The notes under the pieces were generated by a model. That model made no database searches and was not told where the DNA came from. It saw only the letters and a list, made by a program, of their open reading frames with translations. This document shows, piece by piece, positions 2,941 to 53,552 of a stretch of 64,000 nt of DNA (its first letter is position 1; each line of letters begins with the position of its first letter). The translations under genes were made by a program, and so were the position numbers. The stretch comes from a virus. Lineage: Duplodnaviria > Heunggongvirae > Uroviricota > Caudoviricetes. The stretch is taken from IMG/VR virus record IMGVR_UViG_2636416131_000001, positions 32,831 to 96,830 of that record. One strand, 5' to 3'.

Positions 2941-3061
2941 CTGCCGATGTTACATTGAACCTGACCTCTTGCGCCTTGAGGCATTTTCGGTTTATGCTTA
3001 TCAGGCACCTCAGTAAAACGGGTGCCGGGATTGGAACCCCGGATAATGTCAAAGGCGACAC

Positions 3062-3084
3062 AGACGCCAAAAGCGTCTTTTTTT
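3062..3084 (+). terminator. rho-independent terminator after pacB
   Basis: hairpin agacgc-caaaa-gcgtct followed by T7 run. Confidence 0.55.
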
Positions 3085-3114
3085 GTGTCATGCCATCGCA
3101 CGGCCATACGTAGC

Positions 3115-3235
3115 GTTTAGCTCAGAGATCAATGGTAGTGCTGGCTGGGCTGCCGAAAGGCAGGCCGGTTCCCTTTGACGCCGGTAGTTCCAACCCAGTC
3201 AGTGCTACCGCCATTGAGATTGGAACCTCACGCGG
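3115..3235 (+). ncRNA. c4-like antisense RNA region (bounds approximate)
   Basis: Lies between an operator and an icd-like ORF as c4 does in immI; hairpin ctgcc-gaaa-ggcag; ggtagttccaa is complementary to downstream ttggaac...cggtagc in the icd leader. Confidence 0.3.
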
Positions 3236-8839: not shown

Positions 8840-9027
8840 TAAATATATTATTTTTAATCTTAAATGATTGACAACTGACAAGTGACTTGAGTCAGAATCA
8901 TCACACGCCCGGTACGGATGGATCCCTTTTCAAATATTCCATGGACGGCACAGTCTGAGTACCGGGCGCTACCTTCAGTTGTATTGCTAAGCCGCCGCTG
9001 GTGGCTTTTCTTTTTTGTAGGGGCGCT

Positions 9028-9669
9028 ATGGATAAGAAAATATGCGTTGTTTCAATGAGCGTCGGCAAACCGGCGTCAATGACTGCTGCATGGATCAACA
9101 ATGAGCTGATAATGGCTGAGCGGACCAGCTACCCTGAACGCCGCCGCGATATGGAACTCCAGCTGCTGCGCGAATTGCGAGAAAAAGAGGAAAAGGGTTT
9201 TATCGTGCTGGTGGAAGAGGAAAACAGCTTTATTACCGGTCGAGTTGGCCAGCGTGTAAGGTTGCGTGATCCCTTCATGAACGGCAGACCGGTACTGATT
9301 GAAGCAATGCAGATTTACAAGGAATTGGAACGCCAGAAAGCGATCAAGTTACCGCGCAAGGAATCCGGCAAATACATCCTTCACCAAAGCATCTTCGATT
9401 CCGAACACGATAAAAAAGGCGATGAATTTTTCAACATCAACTGGAGCGAAATAACGACAGAACATGTTCTGACGTTACTATGTTGCTTTGCGACGGAATA
9501 CAACAACGTTGCCAGCGCCGACTACATCAGGGCAATGGCTGGAGAAGTTGAGGCCCATCAGGAACCATCATTACTAAGTCCCCTGATTAACATAATTCGC
9601 GGAACTCAAACACTAACGCAAAAACAAGTGCCGCAAGGAGAATTAACAGGTAAACAGAACTATTTATAA
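9028..9669 (+). CDS. hypothetical protein (position fits P1 mat; unverified)
   Basis: ATG at 9028 in frame with track ORF 9001..9669; GC content like the phage core. Confidence 0.5.
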   Translation: MDKKICVVSMSVGKPASMTAAWINNELIMAERTSYPERRRDMELQLLRELREKEEKGFIVLVEEENSFITGRVGQRVRLRDPFMNGRPVLIEAMQIYKELERQKAIKLPRKESGKYILHQSIFDSEHDKKGDEFFNINWSEITTEHVLTLLCCFATEYNNVASADYIRAMAGEVEAHQEPSLLSPLINIIRGTQTLTQKQVPQGELTGKQNYL

Positions 9670-9690
9670 TAGTTACGTTAGGTAACATTA

Positions 9691-9717
9691 TGGGTATGTT
9701 TCATTTTCATACCCATT
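9691..9717 (+). terminator. terminator hairpin after 9028..9669
   Basis: atgggtatg-tttcatttt-catacccat 9 bp stem followed by T-rich tract. Confidence 0.5.
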
Positions 9718-9763
9718 GATTTCTAGCTTGATTTGTTATTATATGTAACAACACATTAATCAT

Positions 9764-10903
9764 TTGAACTGGATGTTAGTAATGGGCAGTGAAGTATATC
9801 AAAGCCAAAAATGCGAACTTAAATATTCGAAATCTCAAATAGAAAAAGCAGCCAGAAAAATTAGACATGGTTGTGAGGGCGCAGAGCGAGAAGAAGCAAT
9901 TAAAATGATTCAAAATTTCCGCGAGCTTCATTTATATCCATTGATGCTAATGAAAAATCATCTTGATAGGGCTGCAAAAAAAGTTGATAAAGAGAATAAG
10001 ATTATTGTTGCAAGACGCCTAAAAAGACTTAGCACAATAATTGATAAACTGGAGCGTCCAAGTCTTGACGGCGGCGCAACAAATAATGCAATAGCCCTTA
10101 CTAGAATGCAGGATATTGGCGGATGTAGAGCTATAGTTAGAAACATCGAACAACTAAAGAAACTAAAAGACCGACTAGTTAAAAGTCGCTCCAAGCATAA
10201 AATCTTAAAGGAATATGACTATTTAACTCCAAAGCCAAGCGGATATAGTGGCATTCACCTTGCATATAGTTGTTTTGATGAAGAAAACGGTAACAATCCG
10301 TGGAGTAAAACTAAAATCGAAGTACAACTAAGAACAGAACTCCAACATGCTTGGGCAACAAGTCTGGAGATAATAGATACACTTGAAAATATTAAGCTGA
10401 AAACTTCTAATGAAGGTCACCCTGAGTGGAGAAGATTTTTTTATCTTTCTGGATGCCTAGTTGCTCATGATGAAGGTGCCTGTATTCTTGATGATGAAAC
10501 CATCAAAAATTATCAAACAGAGCTTAAAACATTGGAGGAGGCTTTATCTGTTCGCTCAAAATTAAGTACATATACATTTGCAATGAAGCTGACATCAGAT
10601 GCAAACCTAAAGAAAAGCCTGCCCAAAAACCATAATGGATTCTTTTTGGTGAGGATGAGAAACGCCATAACAAAAAATGGCAAGGATACTGGAAAGTTTC
10701 TTGTTTCTGTGAAACCTTTTAGGAAAAAAGAATCGGAACAAGCCCTCCAGGAACTTAATAAGGATGATGCGGATCCTGAAGTATTAATTGCGGTGCTGCT
10801 TGCCACTAACAACATTAAATCTCTTAAAAAGGCTTATCCTAACTATTTTGGGTCAACAAATCAGTTCGGGAGATTCCTTAGCAGACACATTGATACTGTG
10901 TAA
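9764..10903 (+). CDS. fused toxSAS toxin-antitoxin, CapRel-like (RelA/SpoT-type nucleotidyltransferase domain + C-terminal sensor/antitoxin region)
   Basis: 379 aa; synthetase motifs RRLKRLSTIIDKLER, MQDIGGCRAIV, GYSGIHLAY, EVQLRTELQHAWATSLE; visibly AT-rich versus flanks; sits where P1 carries res/mod. Confidence 0.8.
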   Translation: MNWMLVMGSEVYQSQKCELKYSKSQIEKAARKIRHGCEGAEREEAIKMIQNFRELHLYPLMLMKNHLDRAAKKVDKENKIIVARRLKRLSTIIDKLERPSLDGGATNNAIALTRMQDIGGCRAIVRNIEQLKKLKDRLVKSRSKHKILKEYDYLTPKPSGYSGIHLAYSCFDEENGNNPWSKTKIEVQLRTELQHAWATSLEIIDTLENIKLKTSNEGHPEWRRFFYLSGCLVAHDEGACILDDETIKNYQTELKTLEEALSVRSKLSTYTFAMKLTSDANLKKSLPKNHNGFFLVRMRNAITKNGKDTGKFLVSVKPFRKKESEQALQELNKDDADPEVLIAVLLATNNIKSLKKAYPNYFGSTNQFGRFLSRHIDTV

Positions 10904-10905
10904 AT

Positions 10906-10933
10906 TCCTATGCCTGGCTTAGCCAGGCATAGC
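10906..10933. terminator. bidirectional terminator hairpin between the toxSAS gene and lxc
   Basis: ctatgcctggc-ttagc-caggcatag. Confidence 0.55.
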
Positions 10934-10940
10934 CAAAGAT

Positions 10941-11189
10941 TTAATCAGCATTCAGGAGCAATGCGTTATCTATGATGATCTGCTCCCATTCTTCGAATGC
11001 CCGGTCGCGGACGCCCTGGGGAACGCTGTTAGTTTTGAAATCGACGACCGTACGCCATTTCCCGTCCGGACGGTACATGCGCAGAGCTTTACTTCCCCCT
11101 TCCCTGCGCACCTCAACGTTATGCTTATCAGCAAACTCTTGTAATGCTCGTAGCGTCCCATGCTTTACTGTGTAGTATCGCTTTTTCAA
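10941..11189 (-). CDS. lxc: Lxc (Bof) co-repressor
   Basis: 82 aa ORF downstream of ulx/darB on the same strand; size and synteny as in P1. Confidence 0.75.
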   Translation of the reverse strand: MKKRYYTVKHGTLRALQEFADKHNVEVRREGGSKALRMYRPDGKWRTVVDFKTNSVPQGVRDRAFEEWEQIIIDNALLLNAD

Positions 11190-11626
11190 GTTTTCTCTCC
11201 AGCCTGTGCCAAGGCTTCAACTTCCAAATCGTAAGACTCAAACTCATAGTCCTGGTCGTCAACTTCTTCAGGCACTGGCAGTAAATGCCAGGCTGAGTAT
11301 ATCTGACCATTATCAAAACGCTCCTGGCTGTAGAGCGTCGCGGCTATGAGTGTTAGCGCCGGGCGGTCATAACGGTAAATTTTGCGAACGTCACGGTCAA
11401 CGAGACGACCGAAATTACCATAACCGCGCTCCAGTAATAATTTTTTAATTTCCGGCCAGTATGGACCATAGCTGCGGTACAGGCGGGGATTTTTCAGTAA
11501 TCGCCCGCGTAGCCCTGACAGGAAGAAATCAACGTATTCGTCTTCTGTCTTTCCTAACAACGCTGTACGGAGTACCGCCTCAAGATATGTTTTATTCGGT
11601 TTTATTGTATCAGATAGTGTGGCCAT
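11186..11626 (-). CDS. ulx: Ulx
   Basis: 146 aa; start overlaps... stop overlaps lxc start by 4 nt; synteny darB-ulx-lxc. Confidence 0.7.
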   Translation of the reverse strand: MATLSDTIKPNKTYLEAVLRTALLGKTEDEYVDFFLSGLRGRLLKNPRLYRSYGPYWPEIKKLLLERGYGNFGRLVDRDVRKIYRYDRPALTLIAATLYSQERFDNGQIYSAWHLLPVPEEVDDQDYEFESYDLEVEALAQAGEKT

Positions 11627-44400: not shown

Positions 44401-44819
44401 CCTTTTTGACCGAACATTTCGCGAGCGTGTTCGGCTGCTTCGGTCCGTTGCGCCTTTACATCCTCTGGTATAGCCTTCCTGCGTCGTTTTTTACCATTTG
44501 GTGTGGTTGATTTGGCCCGCTGTTCCTGTTGAGCAACATCTTCCTGAACTACACGAGAAACGTCCCCTAAATTAAGCCGTTTCATTGCGTCAACAATAGG
44601 GTCTACTGATGGCGCTTTGGCCACAAAGTCAGGCCGGGAATTTTCGATTGTGTGATTTAATGCCGACACGCTGCGAGAGACAGGATCAACAGTAGCAACT
44701 CGCCCACCTTTCAAATCTTCAACAGCTTCCCGGATACCAGCAAGCTCTTCCAGCTCTTTTGCGCTGGCGGTTTCAACTGTCCTTATAACATCGTCAATGT
44801 TGGCGTTTTTTCTTTCCAT
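41445..44819 (-). CDS. sit: Sit, injected lytic transglycosylase / tape-measure-like protein
   Basis: 1124 aa; SLT-domain motifs (AVASAESSAGQRTG, GAFQITKGT, AYHAGMGHV); Gly/Ala/Lys-rich central repeats. Confidence 0.85.
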   Translation of the reverse strand: MERKNANIDDVIRTVETASAKELEELAGIREAVEDLKGGRVATVDPVSRSVSALNHTIENSRPDFVAKAPSVDPIVDAMKRLNLGDVSRVVQEDVAQQEQRAKSTTPNGKKRRRKAIPEDVKAQRTEAAEHAREMFGQKGGAQKSQNQRDARGRFIGKSGSKAAAEDARAERAEKARRKEDDERLNAESGLLKKLSKVAEGIGNPSETRAVDALGYAVAGPLWAAGKELGGISKEVGGSLNGARKSIADVIRGNDDNSRRKGFFRRKSQNSADVVQVNTQKRTVQELQDQTSEIKEGNDKILSALDQIAKNTGKKKGGLLSKLFSLLGKGAGGVASLLMGRGMLKKAGALAFGALGAKKLVGMLRGGGKKTLAHEGGDLAARAAGKLGLKAVGKGALRAIPLVGTVAGGIYDAVTGWNDTEAQRRAFGLKSGQDPSFQQKAAYTLANVLDLGGLVSGISSAIGDVLKSLGFEDIGNMLQSFSTESIAQAIDSGITNLETYISNLGDTISTKFDDYTAKIGDAVSAWFSDTSNKLLEKLDAIKDFFTVDNLKQVFSDAIDSAIDFIKNPGKHIKEAASNIWDGVKNLPGKALDAAVDAVKNTPAAMIVSKIPNPIGEANAKEITPELKAPVNSQQGTSDSKAESDAKQTNIAARVINAALDMAKDSNKTVKETANQIINANAVETGNKAAQTIDAALGQSATGKEEALSAYEIDKRRFNNGKDVSLPKLNAAGYQWISDNADYFDELERKYGLEKGILSAVASAESSAGQRTGNPVDKNGNKLSSALGAFQITKGTREDLGLSDADAMDTRKAADGAARYLSILMNRYNGDQGRAIAAYHAGMGHVDKGRVVAGTGEYVTRVRGYQQMLNNGAVYGSKVDHSAPAIHEKIPDNAVIDQSTGLAFTPGDSPFEKGGLVDKIGNAVGVNDLVNKFMNGRGMRREVVQGTLEERARGKGTATAAGNVYVDTPMPVEEARPVASNSSYFDQLGAQMGIDGLFDKLRNSPGMRKNNVPEPASTSQVTTAANDLQQPTGRMQIDGQVISDLGGSGAKPTMQLADNTVSLDGETKRLFAQMTSLLARIEEHTKDSAKGQGTVVKVSTPQPGVMRTVPLSIDDPLMNDYARVD

Positions 44820-47009: not shown

Positions 47010-47139
47010 TTAACCGATTCTACGAGTTGTCATTTGTTACCGGTCAGTCTACACATTTCAGATACTACGTTAAAACAACTCAAGTGCTTCAAGTAGCACA
47101 TCGTCATCAACACCCAATCCGAAGATGCGGAGATAAAAT

Positions 47140-48324
47140 TCAAGCCTTAAGAGGCTTTGTGTATGTTCGTGTAATCCAACCAGTAATAAACTCATCCCCT
47201 GATTTAACCTGCACGTAAAGCCATTGACGATCTTTCTTATCTAAAATAGCAACAATTGTGTTTTTGCCAATGCATTCAATCACTTCACTATTTAAAGAAG
47301 GACTGACATGTAATCTTACGTTATCACCAGTTATAAACCTAAAACCATTGAGATCTTCCCACTTAATTTCTGTGTTTTCTTTAATTAATTTTTGTTTTGA
47401 TATTGGTGCATCCTCATATAGGGATACAGAATATGATTCTGTCTTGTGTATTTGCGATAAGATTTGTTCTTTTGCATAATCAGCAATAGCGCCAAGCACC
47501 ACTTCTGTTAAAAGCCACATAATAATAAACTGAAGCGGGTGAGGGAGCGACTTAAATGAATCAATGAACGTCGAACTGGATTTATTTAATCCTTTGTCTT
47601 GAACATCACTTTCGTTGTGAGATGTTTCAATAGCACCTTCGACATAAGCCTGTGCAATTGATGAAAGACTTTGCTCCATTATTTGATGTAATGAAGCCTT
47701 TTGCGCTAGGGTATATTGTTTTAATGATTCTTTTATTTCATTGTTTAAATCTATCTTATGACTTACATTTTGTCGCAATTCATTAAGTATTGCTTGCATG
47801 TTATTTAAACCAGCTTGCTTATTAAGCATCTCGAACTGGTTTCGTAACGGCATAGCAATTTCTGCCTGCTTCCTTAGCATTTGAATGTATTTATTTGCAT
47901 CATGCGGGGGATAAACCTTGGCCTGTTTCTGTAGAATTTCAAGAAATTCACGATGCTTGCTATTTATTCTTCTCAAGCTCGTCATGTTCGCAAGCTGTTT
48001 TTTAACAGAATCACTAAGTAACGATTGCAAATTCAATCTTGCTATTTGTTCTTGAGCTAGCCGCCCTATTCTTAACTGTTCTTGCAAGTTTGCCATATGT
48101 TCTCTATACGATGGAATGATTGCGTTTTTTTGCAGTTCTGCCAACTGTCTAACCAAATTATTAGAAGCATATTCTGATTTTAATAAATCACTTGCCGATG
48201 TATATCCTGGCATTTTGATTTTACTTAAATTATCACGCCAGGTAATATTTGAATCTCTATTATAGAGATCGCTTACTGAGCCAAGTGCAAGTTTTTTAAT
48301 ATCCTTCACTTTATTCACCGTCAT
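47140..48324 (-). CDS. bitopic membrane protein: N-terminal coiled coil, single TM helix, C-terminal SH3b-like domain
   Basis: 394 aa; Gln/Leu-rich heptads; TM FIIMWLLTEVVLGAIADYA; C-terminal WEDLNGFRFITGDNVRLHVSPS...GWITRTY; AT-rich; start overlaps upstream gene stop by 14 nt. Confidence 0.6.
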   Translation of the reverse strand: MTVNKVKDIKKLALGSVSDLYNRDSNITWRDNLSKIKMPGYTSASDLLKSEYASNNLVRQLAELQKNAIIPSYREHMANLQEQLRIGRLAQEQIARLNLQSLLSDSVKKQLANMTSLRRINSKHREFLEILQKQAKVYPPHDANKYIQMLRKQAEIAMPLRNQFEMLNKQAGLNNMQAILNELRQNVSHKIDLNNEIKESLKQYTLAQKASLHQIMEQSLSSIAQAYVEGAIETSHNESDVQDKGLNKSSSTFIDSFKSLPHPLQFIIMWLLTEVVLGAIADYAKEQILSQIHKTESYSVSLYEDAPISKQKLIKENTEIKWEDLNGFRFITGDNVRLHVSPSLNSEVIECIGKNTIVAILDKKDRQWLYVQVKSGDEFITGWITRTYTKPLKA

Positions 48325-48817
48325 CTTGCTTTAAACATCCATCATTTTTAGCTTCCTTGTAAATACTTGAAATTCCATCAAGAGAGAATGATGTAATTCG
48401 ACGCGATCCGATATATACATCCATGTTTTTTTCTTTTGTGGCTGACGCTGACTTCCAAAAAGAATACCATTCCCTACGATTTGGAGCAGTGTTTTGCGTA
48501 CCAATATTAAAGCTATCCGAACCAACAATTAAGGTAATTACATCAGCTTTACGAGAAATTGTGTCGCGTGTAGAAAAATCAGCATTCTCTTTCCCTCCAC
48601 TTACATACAAATTTCTTCCAGCTATATGATCTTCGGAACCTTCCCTTGCTCCAGCATCACAAGAAAAGTTAATTGTATAACCATCGTCATTGGTTGCAGA
48701 GATTTCTCTCCACCCTTGCTCACCTCCTACCGTCCAAACGGTAGAACCTGCCATTGCTGATAATGGCAGAAAAGAGGACATTAATAAAAAGCTATACAAT
48801 GACTTATATAATTTCAT
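48311..48817 (-). CDS. secreted protein, operon partner of 47140..48324
   Basis: 168 aa; Sec signal peptide MKLYKSLYSFLLMSSFLPLSAMA; TATAAT-like -10 upstream; AT-rich. Confidence 0.6.
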   Translation of the reverse strand: MKLYKSLYSFLLMSSFLPLSAMAGSTVWTVGGEQGWREISATNDDGYTINFSCDAGAREGSEDHIAGRNLYVSGGKENADFSTRDTISRKADVITLIVGSDSFNIGTQNTAPNRREWYSFWKSASATKEKNMDVYIGSRRITSFSLDGISSIYKEAKNDGCLKQDDGE

Positions 48818-48905
48818 ATTTTTATCCTTTTTGTTTTAGATATTATAGGCATAGTCCATATTGTTAGATCCACTATGCCCAGAGAATTTAATATTATTCA
48901 TTAAA

Positions 48906-49397
48906 TTATGGAGCTACACCCGGCCCCCTGGCTCGTTCTTCAAGCGTACCCTGCACGTTTTGATGGCGCATTCCTGGGGCATTTCTGATTGAGTCAATGC
49001 CATTTCTTCCAACATCTTCTTTATTAACGGCATTGCTCGCCACCAGCACACCCCAGCTAGGGATAGCAAAATCAGGAGCTGTTTCGCATGCCTTTACCAT
49101 ATAATCGAAAGTGCTTCGATTGATCTCATTTGCATCGGGGTTTAATAGGCGAGAATATTGGTATTTAGCATTTGCGTTGGTTGAGACTTTATACAGTTCC
49201 TGCTGCACCATCGCTTCAGAAAGTTTAAGGCGCTTCATATCTGACAGTAACTTCTTGCGCATGGATTCGTCTTCACTGACAGCAAATCCGTAAACGTGCC
49301 CAAGGTATTTCGTATAATCGGTACAAATCTCCTTTACGCTTGATGCTGCATTAACAGTCCCAGCCATAAATAATAACGGTAGTAATAGTTTTCTCAT
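48906..49397 (-). CDS. secreted protein with Sit-like C-terminal motif (occupies the sim position)
   Basis: 163 aa from ATG 49397 (AGGTGAGG SD); signal peptide MRKLLLPLLFMAGTVNA; C-terminal GMRHQNVQGTLEERARG matches Sit GMRREVVQGTLEERARG. Confidence 0.6.
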   Translation of the reverse strand: MRKLLLPLLFMAGTVNAASSVKEICTDYTKYLGHVYGFAVSEDESMRKKLLSDMKRLKLSEAMVQQELYKVSTNANAKYQYSRLLNPDANEINRSTFDYMVKACETAPDFAIPSWGVLVASNAVNKEDVGRNGIDSIRNAPGMRHQNVQGTLEERARGPGVAP

Positions 49398-49493
49398 TAT
49401 AACCTCACCTGCCTTATAACTCATTTAGGGTACATATTTTCGCCTTTAAAAAAAAGAGGTTATTAGATCCAATTGTGCATTTATTAAACAAAC

Positions 49494-49510
49494 AATGCTC
49501 TAATAAATTT
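49494..49510 (+). promoter_or_regulatory. C1 operator (Op51-type) upstream of c4
   Basis: AATGCTCTAATAAATTT, 16/17. Confidence 0.65.
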
Positions 49511-49689: not shown

Positions 49690-49790
49690 CAAATTATGGT
49701 GGGGCGTGATGGGGAGGCTTCGGCCTGCTGGTTTCACAATCGCCAGTCTGTCAACCCTGTCACGTCCTGCCACCTGTTTGACAGCGGGTA
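49690..49790 (+). ncRNA. c4: c4 antisense repressor RNA region (bounds approximate)
   Basis: between operator and icd; UUCG-loop hairpin aggc-ttcg-gcct; segments complementary to the icd leader. Confidence 0.4.
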
Positions 49791-53222: not shown

Positions 53223-53345
53223 TACAATCGTTGCGGGTGCTTGAGGCTATCTGCTTCAGGCATTACCCGAAAAGCAGATAGAAGAAAGCCCCAGATAACA
53301 TTACGCGTCCTGCAAGACGCTTAACATTAATCTGAGGCCATATCT

Positions 53346-53552
53346 ATGCTTAGCATACGTAGATTAGCCTCTTACCGACCAAAAGGTCAAGGAGAAGCAG
53401 GCTATGAAGCAGCAAAAAGCGATGTTAATCGCTCTGATCGTCATCTGTTTAACCGTCATTGTGACGGCACTGGTAACGAGGAAAGACCTCTGCGAGGTAC
53501 GAATCCGAACCGGCCAGACGGAGGTCACTGTCTTCACAGCCTACGAATCTGA
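53346..53552 (+). CDS. mok-like overlapping reading frame of the hok locus
   Basis: 68 aa ORF starting upstream of and overlapping hok in another frame. Confidence 0.35.
   Translation: MLSIRRLASYRPKGQGEAGYEAAKSDVNRSDRHLFNRHCDGTGNEERPLRGTNPNRPDGGHCLHSLRI

What the first reader, a model, noticed from the sequence alone, without database searches (positions are those of the whole stretch)
47140..48817. AT-rich two-gene envelope operon (secreted protein + SH3b-domain membrane protein) in the superinfection-exclusion slot
Between the tail/baseplate operon and immI, where P1 carries its sim genes, there is a compositionally distinct, visibly AT-rich pair of minus-strand genes. Stop and start overlap by 14 nt (48311..48324), implying translational coupling, and a TATAAT-like -10 sits upstream of the first gene. 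Gene 1 (48311..48817) encodes a 168 aa protein with a textbook Sec signal peptide. Gene 2 (47140..48324) encodes ~230 aa of Gln/Leu-rich coiled coil, one transmembrane helix and a ~100 aa C-terminal module resembling a bacterial SH3 domain. A periplasmic factor plus an envelope-spanning partner, acquired horizontally at a known immunity hotspot, is what one expects of an exclusion or abortive-infection module. I do not recognise the pair as any named system.
Basis: partly seen in the sequence, partly recalled or inferred. Interest (0 to 1): 0.8.

Follow-up and report, generated by a model that had tools for sequence, protein, structure and literature searches.

The report
Envelope-protein cassette in P1 sim slot
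A P1-like phage-plasmid carries, where phage P1 keeps its superinfection-exclusion (sim) genes, a swapped-in AT-rich set of untested secreted and membrane proteins that probably protect the lysogen's envelope against incoming phages.

Summary
Two minus-strand genes, g2 (47140..48324) and g1 (48311..48817), form the most AT-rich 1.9 kb of the window. They lie between the pmgC/LPsit backbone and c4-icd-ant, replacing P1 simB/simC.

g1 is a Sec-exported member of the uncharacterised YfjT/YkfB family (Pfam PF27224). g2 has a fast-evolving N-terminal helical repeat region, one transmembrane helix and a near-invariant C-terminal SH3b domain.

The interpretation needs three corrections:
- The unit has three genes. 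Upstream g3 (48906..49397) is a secreted SimA-family protein whose C-terminus copies a motif of the phage's own Sit protein.
- g1 and g2 are not an obligate pair. YfjT-like genes occur in 177 plasmids and the SH3 gene in 64, and distant g2 relatives stand alone.
- The 14-nt overlap depends on the start codon chosen.

No known defence family matches. The case for an exclusion or defence role rests on context only. g2 relatives sit in the P2 gpA-gpQ (old/tin) hotspot, beside a DSR1 gene, and in a conjugative element. Every alternative cargo of this slot examined is envelope-targeted.

The function is untested. This is a reasonable candidate, not a surprise.

The parts
47140..48324 (-). g2: bitopic inner-membrane protein, 394 aa (389 aa if the GTG at 48309 is the start). 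PGAP calls it 'SH3 domain-containing protein'; it falls in phrog_7086.
   Evidence: ORF. Identical or nearly identical in 16 PLSDB plasmids, and 64 plasmids hold the family. 47 clusters at 90% identity. 382 representatives at 50% identity in the exhaustive search.
47545..48324 (-). g2 residues 1-260: predicted cytoplasmic helical region built of degenerate L-x-K-Q-A-type repeats. It is the hypervariable part of the cassette.
   Evidence: Motif spacing of 16-27 aa. Relatives have clear tandem repeats with variable copy number. Mosaic identity falls to 20-70% here while the flanks stay at 90-100%. dN/dS is 0.24-0.8 (0.4-0.8 in five of the six comparisons), against about 0.08 in g1.
47473..47538 (-). 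g2 residues 263-284: single transmembrane helix, preceded by the conserved F-x-x-L-P-x-x-x-Q juxtamembrane motif.
   Evidence: KD19 = 1.83. F257, L260 and P261 are nearly invariant. The hydrophobic segment lies 110-120 residues before the C-terminal GW..R.YT motif in the representatives inspected; 91 of 144 distant representatives share this architecture.
47161..47325 (-). g2 residues 334-388: bacterial SH3 (SH3_3) domain, predicted periplasmic. It is the near-invariant part of the protein (GWITRTYTKP).
   Evidence: Pfam SH3_3 at 26.0 bits against a gathering score of 27. 36/36 and 50/50 relatives match. Invariant columns. The fold was not confirmed by structure prediction.
48311..48817 (-). 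g1: secreted 168-aa protein of the YfjT/YkfB family (PF27224; phrog_3429). Signal peptide at residues 1-23 (48749..48817). Two family-conserved cysteines, C53 and C161.
   Evidence: Precomputed PF27224.1 on the identical protein P0048. 27% identity to K-12 YfjT, E 2.5e-5. A profile search retrieves YfjT/YkfB. dN/dS about 0.08. AF2 pLDDT 72, pTM 0.70, with no solved structural relative.
48906..49397 (-). g3: secreted SimA-family protein, 163 aa from the ATG that follows the GGTGAGG Shine-Dalgarno sequence (ORF listing gives 172 aa from 49424). Signal peptide at 49347..49397. It is a C-terminally shortened form of a 215-aa family (phrog_3933).
   Evidence: P1 SimA matches its first 42 residues at 90% identity. 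dN/dS about 0.07.
48912..49034 (-). g3 residues 122-162: a motif shared with the C-terminal part of the window's own Sit protein (Sit residues 921-957, encoded at 41949..42062).
   Evidence: BLASTP 51% identity over 41 residues, E 9e-8. tblastn against the window, E 2.7e-6. Independent phrog_2533 hit, E 1.8e-5.
49462..49488 (-). Counterpart of P1's predicted sigma-70 promoter PsimA, the likely promoter for g3-g1-g2. The C1 operator Oc4 lies next to it at 49494..49510 (+).
   Evidence: Sequence comparison with the annotated P1 record. The promoter is only predicted in P1 as well.
48842..48847 (-). TATAAT hexamer 25 nt upstream of the g1 start. It has no recognisable -35.
   Evidence: Not reported by the promoter scan.
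47017..47035 (-). Late promoter LPsit of the conserved backbone. The foreign block begins just upstream of it, where backbone homology ends at 47038-47046.
47142..47157 (-). Weak terminator-like hairpin overlapping the g2 stop codon.
   Evidence: Three such sites were found against 2.1 expected by chance, so this is not significant.

Best explanation
The locus is a horizontally exchanged accessory cassette in variable region 4 (the sim slot) of a P1-like phage-plasmid. It encodes three envelope proteins.
- g3 is a periplasmic SimA-family protein that carries a motif of the phage's own injected Sit protein.
- g1 is a periplasmic YfjT/YkfB-family protein.
- g2 is an inner-membrane protein with a fast-evolving cytoplasmic helical repeat region, one transmembrane helix and a conserved periplasmic SH3b domain.

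Most likely the three genes are transcribed in the lysogen from the conserved PsimA-like promoter and replace SimB/SimC as an envelope-level barrier to incoming phage, that is, superinfection exclusion or defence.

Proposed steps, all inferred:
1. g3 and g1 are exported by Sec and each forms one disulfide bond.
2. g2 inserts N-in/C-out and its SH3b domain binds peptidoglycan or a periplasmic partner.
3. When a phage penetrates the envelope, the periplasmic components interfere with the ejected tape-measure/transglycosylase or with DNA passage. g3 may do this as a competitor of the Sit C-terminus.
4. The variable cytoplasmic part of g2 sets specificity or is a loosely constrained spacer.

g1 and g2 are separable modules that often travel together, not an obligate pair.
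For: Shown:
- The cassette replaces simB/simC between LPsit and c4.
- It is the lowest-GC stretch of the window.
- All three genes are under purifying selection.
- Two signal peptides, one transmembrane helix and an SH3_3 domain are present.
- The five cargo types examined in this slot are all envelope-targeted: SimB/SimC with signal peptides, P7 Upf50.0 and the lipoprotein Upf50.5, a 116-aa multi-TM protein, YfjT-like proteins and SimA-family proteins.
- Sim is reported to keep superinfecting P1 DNA out of the cytoplasm (PMC8546580), and simABC are dispensable for lytic growth (PMC10695390).

Context of g2 relatives:
- One lies between gpA and the portal gene gpQ of a P2-like phage (L047). 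This is the published old/tin defence hotspot (PMC9122126).
- One is the convergent neighbour of a DSR1 sirtuin defence gene in a YfjJ-type island (L022).
- One follows gpD of a P2-like prophage (L045).
- One is in a conjugative element (L021).

g3 shares a Sit motif at E 9e-8. The g2 N-terminal region is a recombination mosaic with raised dN/dS.
Against: - No experiment exists, and there is no homology to any known exclusion or defence protein (PADLOC; NCBIfam; SimB/SimC).
- The context evidence rests on a handful of loci, not on an enrichment test.
- dN/dS in the g2 N-terminus is below 1 (0.24-0.8), so relaxed constraint explains it as well as an arms race does.
- A hypervariable cytoplasmic domain is not what a purely periplasmic exclusion mechanism predicts.
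- The promoter is a prediction carried over from P1.
- Topology and peptidoglycan binding are inferred.
- The g2 structure could not be modelled.
- The K-12 YfjT/YkfB homologues sit in non-phage islands and have no known phenotype.
Confidence: 0.45

Rival explanations
1. Abortive-infection or sensor type of defence rather than exclusion. g2 would be the active protein. Its variable cytoplasmic repeats would recognise a phage product, or its peptidoglycan-tethered SH3b end would sense envelope breach. Its transmembrane helix, which carries a conserved polar residue, would then oligomerise and collapse the membrane potential. g1 and g3 would be independent or modulatory.
For: - The conserved module (TM, linker, SH3b) is joined to N-terminal regions that vary in sequence and repeat number across at least 91 distant representatives.
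- A mid-helix E/Q/S/T is conserved.
- g2 relatives stand alone in defence hotspots without any YfjT-like gene.
- The N-terminus is mosaic and evolves fast.
Against: - No recognisable effector or sensor domain was found.
- dN/dS is below 1.
- No toxicity or phage data exist.
- Single-pass proteins with long coiled-coil spacers commonly show this kind of variability without any recognition role.
Confidence: 0.17
2. Lysogenic-conversion morons that change the host envelope for reasons unrelated to phages, such as stress tolerance, serum or bile resistance, or colonisation, in the manner of lambda bor/lom.
For: - AT-rich, self-contained envelope genes at the edge of a late operon are the classic moron pattern.
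- YfjT/YkfB homologues lie in the K-12 islands CP4-57 and CP4-6, next to inner-membrane lipoprotein genes, with no phage phenotype known.
- The carriers are mostly animal and human E. coli isolates, including STEC.
Against: - The slot is the known exclusion slot of P1.
- g3 carries a motif of the phage's own Sit protein.
- g2 relatives lie in phage defence hotspots.
- No virulence-type domain is detected.
Confidence: 0.2
3. An accessory role in the phage's own lytic cycle: lysis timing or lysis inhibition (a periplasmic factor plus a membrane protein with a periplasmic domain, as in T4 RI/T), or help with tail assembly or cell-wall passage.
For: - The cassette lies directly upstream of the tail/Sit operon.
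- SH3b domains are typical of endolysins: phrog_1794 amidase is matched by 39 of 50 relatives.
- There are weak sub-threshold hits to tail-fibre assembly proteins (Caudo_TAP E 0.009).
- g3 shares a motif with Sit.
Against: - The genes lie upstream of, not behind, the late promoter LPsit.
- Only about 13% of P1-like plasmids carry g2 (64 of 485), and none of 50,697 phage records does.
- P1's own cargo in this slot is dispensable for lytic growth.
- The tail-fibre hits are below threshold and fall in coiled-coil-like sequence.
Confidence: 0.1

Closest known systems
P1 SimABC (SimC superinfection exclusion, 'superimmunity')
   Same: Identical genomic slot between LPsit/pmgC and c4, same orientation, low GC, and secreted products. 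The first 42 residues of g3 are 90% identical to P1 SimA and the upstream promoter region is conserved.
   Different: No sequence similarity of g1 or g2 to SimB or SimC. P1 SimA is only the N-terminal remnant of the g3 family and lacks the Sit-like motif. No phenotype is known for this cassette.
E. coli K-12 YfjT (CP4-57) and YkfB (CP4-6); Pfam PF27224
   Same: g1 is a member. It has the same length class, a signal peptide, the two conserved cysteines and the W-x-x-F motif. It is 27% identical to YfjT.
   Different: The K-12 genes lie in integrative islands after a small TM protein and an inner-membrane lipoprotein (ypjK-yfjS-yfjT), not beside an SH3 protein. The family has no known function, so membership explains nothing about mechanism.
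Envelope-level exclusion proteins of other phages (T4 Imm and Sp, HK97 gp15, P22 SieA, Streptococcus phage TP-J34 Ltp); comparison from general knowledge
   Same: Small prophage- or phage-encoded periplasmic or membrane proteins that stop DNA entry after adsorption. Ltp and Sp act on the incoming phage's tape-measure or lysozyme component, which resembles the g3-Sit decoy idea.
   Different: No homology was detected, and none of them has the repeat-TM-SH3b architecture. The likeness is functional and hypothetical only.
Cargo of the P2 gpA-gpQ hotspot (old, tin and other anti-phage systems; PMC9122126)
   Same: A distant g2 relative (348 aa, SH3_3 E 4.7e-10) lies in exactly this hotspot in a P2-like viral contig. 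Both are variable cargo loci of temperate coliphages.
   Different: g2 is not homologous to Old, Tin or any PADLOC model. The published hotspot papers searched do not mention an SH3 protein.
E. coli YgiM-type 'SH3 domain plus membrane anchor' proteins (from general knowledge)
   Same: A bacterial SH3 domain combined with a single membrane-spanning segment in a Gram-negative envelope.
   Different: YgiM has an N-terminal signal peptide, then SH3, then a C-terminal anchor. g2 has the reverse order, with a long cytoplasmic N-terminus. No NCBIfam model matched g2.

Membership tests
P1 Sim superinfection-exclusion system | Homology to SimC, the processed periplasmic exclusion protein, and to SimB | tested here: not met
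   BLASTP of g1, g2 and g3 against P1 SimC and SimB gave nothing below E 0.1. tblastn of SimB/SimC against the window gave no hit.
P1 Sim superinfection-exclusion system | Location between pmgC/LPsit and c4, transcribed away from c4 | tested here: met
   Backbone homology to P1, P7 and Ro157c2YLVW ends at 47038-47046 and resumes at 49258 (P1) or 49496 (P7). LPsit, the PsimA-like promoter and the Oc4 operator are conserved.
P1 Sim superinfection-exclusion system | Exclusion of superinfecting P1 after adsorption | not testable with these tools
   This needs plating, adsorption and DNA-entry assays.
YfjT/YkfB family (Pfam PF27224) - g1 | Significant match to the family model or profile | tested here: met
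   The identical protein P0048 carries a precomputed PF27224.1 hit. A profile built with g1 retrieves YfjT/YkfB proteins at E down to 1e-55. Pairwise comparison to K-12 YfjT gives E 2.5e-5. The local Pfam copy lacks this model, since K-12 YfjT itself gives no hit, so the negative result is uninformative.
YfjT/YkfB family (Pfam PF27224) - g1 | Signal peptide plus conserved Cys pair and W..F core motif | tested here: met
   Alignments A1 and A2: C53 and W28 are invariant, W117 and F120 are at least 90% conserved, and the C-terminal Cys is present in all members shown.
Bacterial SH3 domain (Pfam SH3_3, PF08239) - g2 C-terminus | Match to the SH3_3 model at or above the gathering score | tested here: inconclusive
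   The window protein scores 26.0 bits against a cut-off of 27. All 36 close and all 50 distant relatives match, with best E-values of 1.3e-9 and 6.3e-13, so the family-level assignment is sound.
Bacterial SH3 domain (Pfam SH3_3, PF08239) - g2 C-terminus | SH3-like beta-barrel fold | tested here: inconclusive
   The AF2 model of g2 has mean pLDDT 39.9 and about 30 in the SH3 region, so no fold search was meaningful.
Known anti-phage defence systems (PADLOC-DB 2.0) | Match of any of the three proteins to a defence-system model | tested here: not met
   There is no hit below E 0.1 for g1, g2 or g3. Newer model sets such as DefenseFinder and DefensePredictor were not available.
Obligate two-gene system (g1 + g2) | Conserved co-occurrence and co-divergence of the two genes | tested here: not met
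   Within Escherichia P1-like elements every g2 with at least 53% identity has a YfjT-like gene directly upstream, wherever the upstream DNA is present in the locus. Against that: 177 plasmids hold YfjT-like genes and only 64 hold g2. Eight distant g2 relatives lack a YfjT-like gene, though three of those loci are truncated. The partner g1 alleles are 28% identical while the g2 alleles are 68% identical.

The most novel reading that the evidence does not exclude
The repeat-TM-SH3b proteins (g2 and at least 382 family representatives at 50% identity) would be an unrecognised, widespread family of anti-phage proteins carried by mobile elements. They would work as peptidoglycan-tethered transmembrane sensors whose hypervariable cytoplasmic tandem repeats recognise phage products. 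In the P1 cassette they would act alongside a periplasmic decoy of the injected Sit protein (g3) and a YfjT-family factor (g1). This would also give the YfjT/YkfB y-genes of E. coli K-12 their first function.
Probability: 0.2. Interest if true: 0.75.

Novelty: new variant of a known kind. Interest (0 to 1): 0.45.

Why it matters
P1-like phage-plasmids are common in clinical and livestock E. coli, and they spread resistance genes. What they carry in the sim slot decides which phages, including other P1-like elements, can enter a lysogen.

If the cassette is an exclusion or defence module, three things follow:
- It adds a new protein architecture to the envelope-level defences.
- It gives a testable function to the orphan YfjT/YkfB family.
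- It suggests a simple mechanism for SimA-family proteins, namely mimicry of the Sit C-terminus.

If the cassette has no phage phenotype, it is one more uncharacterised moron.

Tried and rejected
- AlphaFold2 of g2 with a 36-sequence alignment failed (pLDDT 39.9). No fold search was run on it, and both prediction jobs were then spent.
- Foldseek against BFVD returned only a family member from a Serratia jumbo phage. The afdb50 library was unavailable.
- PADLOC, NCBIfam and the local Pfam copy gave nothing for g1. The local Pfam copy lacks PF27224.
- A profile of the g2 family against PDB sequences hit only helical repeat and designed proteins at E > 0.1.
- Weak hits of g2 residues 52-108 to tail-fibre assembly proteins (Caudo_TAP E 0.009; phrog_3792 and phrog_188) were judged to be coiled-coil noise.
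- There is no DNA-level tandem repeat in the window's g2.
- tblastn of g2 found no match in 50,697 phage records.
- The genome scan returned only 5 loci, so no enrichment statistics could be computed.
- Literature searches found no functional study of YfjT/YkfB or of an SH3 exclusion protein.
Full report
**1. The observation**

The window is a P1-like phage-plasmid (Punavirus). Around the finding it is 95-98% identical to P1, P7 and related records, except for the finding itself.

GC is 0.350 for g2 and 0.379 for g1, against 0.479 for the window. The block 47047..48917 is the single lowest-GC 1.87-kb stretch in all 64 kb (0.356; mean 0.478, sd 0.033).

On one side lies the conserved pmgC-tub-pmgB-sit operon with its late promoter LPsit (47017..47035). 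On the other lie the C1 operator Oc4 (49494), the c4 antisense RNA (49692..49777), icd and ant1. This is the position of simC-simB-simA in P1. It is also variable region 4 of the eight low-GC variable regions described for P1-like phage-plasmids (PMC9603915).

**2. The proteins**

*g2.* It has one hydrophobic segment (residues 263-284, KD19 1.83) and a C-terminal SH3_3 match (residues 334-388, 26.0 bits against a cut-off of 27). All 36 close and all 50 distant relatives match SH3_3, so the domain assignment is sound at family level. Structure prediction failed (pLDDT 40).

With no signal peptide and about 260 residues before the helix, the expected topology is N-in, C-out. This is inferred.

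**3. A third gene belongs to the cassette**

Upstream lies g3 (48906..49397, 163 aa from the ATG behind a GGTGAGG Shine-Dalgarno; signal peptide MRKLLLPLLFMAGTVNA|AS). PGAP calls it 'simA domain protein'.

P1 SimA (52 aa) matches the first 42 residues of this family at 90% identity, with P1 homology starting at 49258. In phage Ro157c2YLVW the protein is 215 aa long. In the window it ends at residue 163, at the junction (48918) where the AT-rich g1-g2 block begins. g3 has GC 0.445, close to the backbone.

The predicted P1 promoter PsimA is conserved at 49462..49488. g3-g1-g2 is therefore probably one transcription unit, with g1-g2 a later insertion into it.

The 14-nt overlap holds for the ATG at 48324. 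A GTG at 48309 behind GGTGA, 1 nt after the g1 stop, is an equally good start, and PGAP uses it in several records.

**4. Distribution, and whether g1 and g2 are a pair**

| Quantity | Count |
|---|---|
| PLSDB plasmids matching the region | 485 |
| Of these, holding the full cassette at 80% coverage or more | 35 |
| Complete E. coli genomes holding the full cassette | 32 of 5,426 |
| Plasmids with g2 (tblastn) | 64 |
| Plasmids with YfjT-like proteins (tblastn) | 177 |
| Deposited phage genomes with g2 | 0 of 50,697 |

The slot holds several cassette types:

| Type | Content |
|---|---|
| A (window) | SimA-family 163 aa + YfjT-like 168 aa + SH3 357-394 aa |
| B | 116-aa multi-TM protein + YfjT-like 158 aa + SH3 344 aa, with a 74-nt gap between the last two |
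| Ro157c2YLVW and Cronobacter phage JK004 | SimA-family + YfjT-like, no SH3 gene |
| P1 | SimA remnant + SimB + SimC |
| P7 | lipoprotein + DUF5384 |

Within Escherichia elements, every g2 with at least 53% identity has a YfjT-like gene directly upstream where the DNA is available. Eight distant relatives (45% identity or less) have none, and three of those loci are truncated. The YfjT-like partners of types A and B are 28% identical, while the SH3 proteins are 68% identical. So g1 and g2 often travel together here but are shuffled independently. They do not pass the test for an obligate pair.

**5. How the genes evolve**

Alignment of six type-A cassettes shows a mosaic. g3, g1, the SH3 end of g2 and the backbone are 87-100% identical. 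The stretch 48330..47560, which is the g2 N-terminal region, drops to 20-70% with sharp boundaries and an indel of 37 codons.

| Region | dN/dS |
|---|---|
| g3 | about 0.07 |
| g1 | about 0.08 |
| g2 SH3 part | 0.1-0.27 |
| g2 TM-linker | 0.3-0.45 |
| g2 N-terminal 260 residues | 0.24-0.8 (0.4-0.8 in five of six comparisons) |

All three genes are therefore functional. The cytoplasmic part of g2 is either loosely constrained or diversifying. The data do not separate these.

**6. The wider g2 family**

The word-indexed search found only 47 clusters, almost all on contigs of about 95 kb. The exhaustive profile search found 382 representatives at 50% identity, 125 of them at E 1e-10 or better.

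At least 91 of the 144 distant representatives inspected share the same layout:
- a conserved module of about 130 residues (F..LP...Q, a TM helix, a linker of roughly 50 residues, an SH3b domain, and a C-terminal GW..R.YT motif);
- preceded by N-terminal regions of very different length.

Many of these N-terminal regions are obvious tandem repeats of 13-40 residues whose copy number varies even within one 90% cluster (Klebsiella, 241-456 aa). Members are annotated only as 'SH3 domain-containing protein' in Serratia, Brenneria, Citrobacter, Pantoea, Klebsiella, Kluyvera and Alloalcanivorax.

**7. Context of the relatives**

- Kluyvera chromosome (L022): the 398-aa relative is the convergent neighbour of a SIR2-DUF4020 protein that matches PADLOC Dsr1 at 1e-65, inside an island with a YagK/YfjJ gene.
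- A P2-like viral contig (L047): a 348-aa relative lies between replication gene A and the portal gene. This is the locus shown to be the P2 defence hotspot that holds old and tin (PMC9122126).
- Another P2-like prophage (L045): a 525-aa relative follows gpD at the end of the tail operon.
- A Scandinavium contig (L021): a relative lies among conjugation genes.
- Citrobacter (L010): the gene is elsewhere in a P1-related element.

This is the distribution expected of anti-phage cargo. It rests on a handful of loci and not on an enrichment test.

**8.

Residues 122-162 of g3 (NAVNKEDVGRNGIDSIRNAPGMRHQNVQGTLEERARGPGVA) are 51% identical to residues 921-957 of the window's own Sit protein. Sit is the SLT-domain, tape-measure-like protein encoded at 41445..44819. 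A second, shorter copy of the PGMR motif lies at Sit residues 997-1011 (E 9e-8; E 2.7e-6 against the window; independent phrog_2533 hit).

The truncation of g3 in this cassette falls immediately after the motif. A periplasmic protein that displays a piece of the injected protein's C-terminus could compete with an incoming phage for whatever that piece binds. This is inference only, but it gives the cassette a concrete and testable exclusion mechanism.

**9. Most likely function**

I commit to an envelope-level barrier against incoming phage, expressed in the lysogen, which functionally replaces SimB/SimC (confidence 0.45). The shown steps are the position, the envelope targeting, purifying selection, the mosaic exchange, the Sit motif and the hotspot contexts. 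The inferred steps are the promoter and its timing, the topology, peptidoglycan binding, and any effect on phage.

Rivals:
- an abortive-infection or sensor role centred on g2 (0.17);
- phage-unrelated lysogenic conversion (0.20);
- an accessory lytic-cycle role (0.10).

P1's own genes in this slot are dispensable for lytic growth (PMC10695390). Sim is reported to keep superinfecting DNA out of the cytoplasm (PMC8546580).

**10. Comparison with what is known, and novelty**

The cassette is not a Sim system by homology and not any PADLOC system. g1 is a plain member of the named but uncharacterised YfjT/YkfB family. g2 belongs to an unnamed family with an SH3b domain.

The sequences are already in hundreds of public records as hypothetical proteins. 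The kind of thing, exchangeable envelope cargo at a temperate phage's immunity-adjacent hotspot, is well known. I rate it a new variant of a known kind, with interest 0.45: a good candidate for a bench test, not a surprise.

The most novel reading not excluded is that the repeat-TM-SH3b family is a new and widespread anti-phage family, and that SimA-family proteins act as Sit decoys (probability about 0.2).

Noticed in passing
window 48912-49034 (g3) versus 41949-42062 and 41787-41831 (sit): The C-terminus of the secreted SimA-family protein shares a 41-residue motif (51% identity, E 9e-8) with the C-terminal part of the phage's own Sit (SLT-domain tape-measure-like) protein. It may act as a decoy or competitor.
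   Followed up: partly
window 48906-49397; junctions at 48918 and 49258: g3 is a shortened form (163 aa) of a 215-aa family, and P1 SimA (52 aa) is an even shorter remnant of the same gene. Successive cassette swaps in this slot appear to have cut the 3' end of the first gene each time.
   Followed up: yes
window 48906-49397; L001 2673-3320; L014 2877-3446: Three SimA-family proteins each give a just-sub-threshold Pfam hit to PTPlike_phytase (22-27 bits against a cut-off of 27, profile positions about 46-132 of 158). No CX5R catalytic motif is visible.
   Followed up: no
sim slot of P1 (L002), P7 (L003), L006, L001, L014: The five cargo types examined in this slot all encode secreted, lipoprotein or membrane proteins (SimB/SimC, Upf50.0/Upf50.5, a 116-aa multi-TM protein, YfjT-like, SimA-family). 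The slot seems reserved for envelope functions.
   Followed up: partly
L022 7839-9035 and 9438-12950 (Kluyvera sp. chromosome): A 398-aa g2 relative is the convergent neighbour of a DSR1-type SIR2-DUF4020 defence gene in an island with a YagK/YfjJ gene. A GGDEF gene and an LprI-like gene lie nearby.
   Followed up: partly
L047 6380-7426 (P2-like viral contig): A 348-aa g2 relative lies between gpA and the portal gene, which is the published P2 old/tin defence hotspot. Three unannotated genes sit beside it.
   Followed up: partly
window 3005-3215: A second C4-type antisense RNA (RF01695, 77 bits) lies directly after an isrK-like sRNA (RF01394), far from the immI c4 copy at 49692-49777.
   Followed up: no
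window 53235-53409: A sok antitoxin RNA (RF01794, 115 bits) lies downstream of repL, implying a hok/sok addiction module in the rlf variable region.
   Followed up: no
window about 9000-11300: This is the only other stretch of the window with GC below 0.40. It covers ORFs 9001..9669 and 9764..10903 and is probably another foreign cargo block.
   Followed up: no
Klebsiella pneumoniae cluster of P0185: Members of one 90%-identity cluster of g2 relatives range from 241 to 456 aa, partly through different numbers of a tandem repeat of about 29 residues. Some of the shorter entries are partial sequences. This is copy-number variation in a predicted cytoplasmic domain.
   Followed up: no
phage records MW394391 (Klebsiella FBKp24) and ON287372 (Serratia Totoro): YfjT-like proteins also occur in virulent jumbo phages (25-28% identity to g1), so the family is not restricted to temperate elements.
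   Followed up: no
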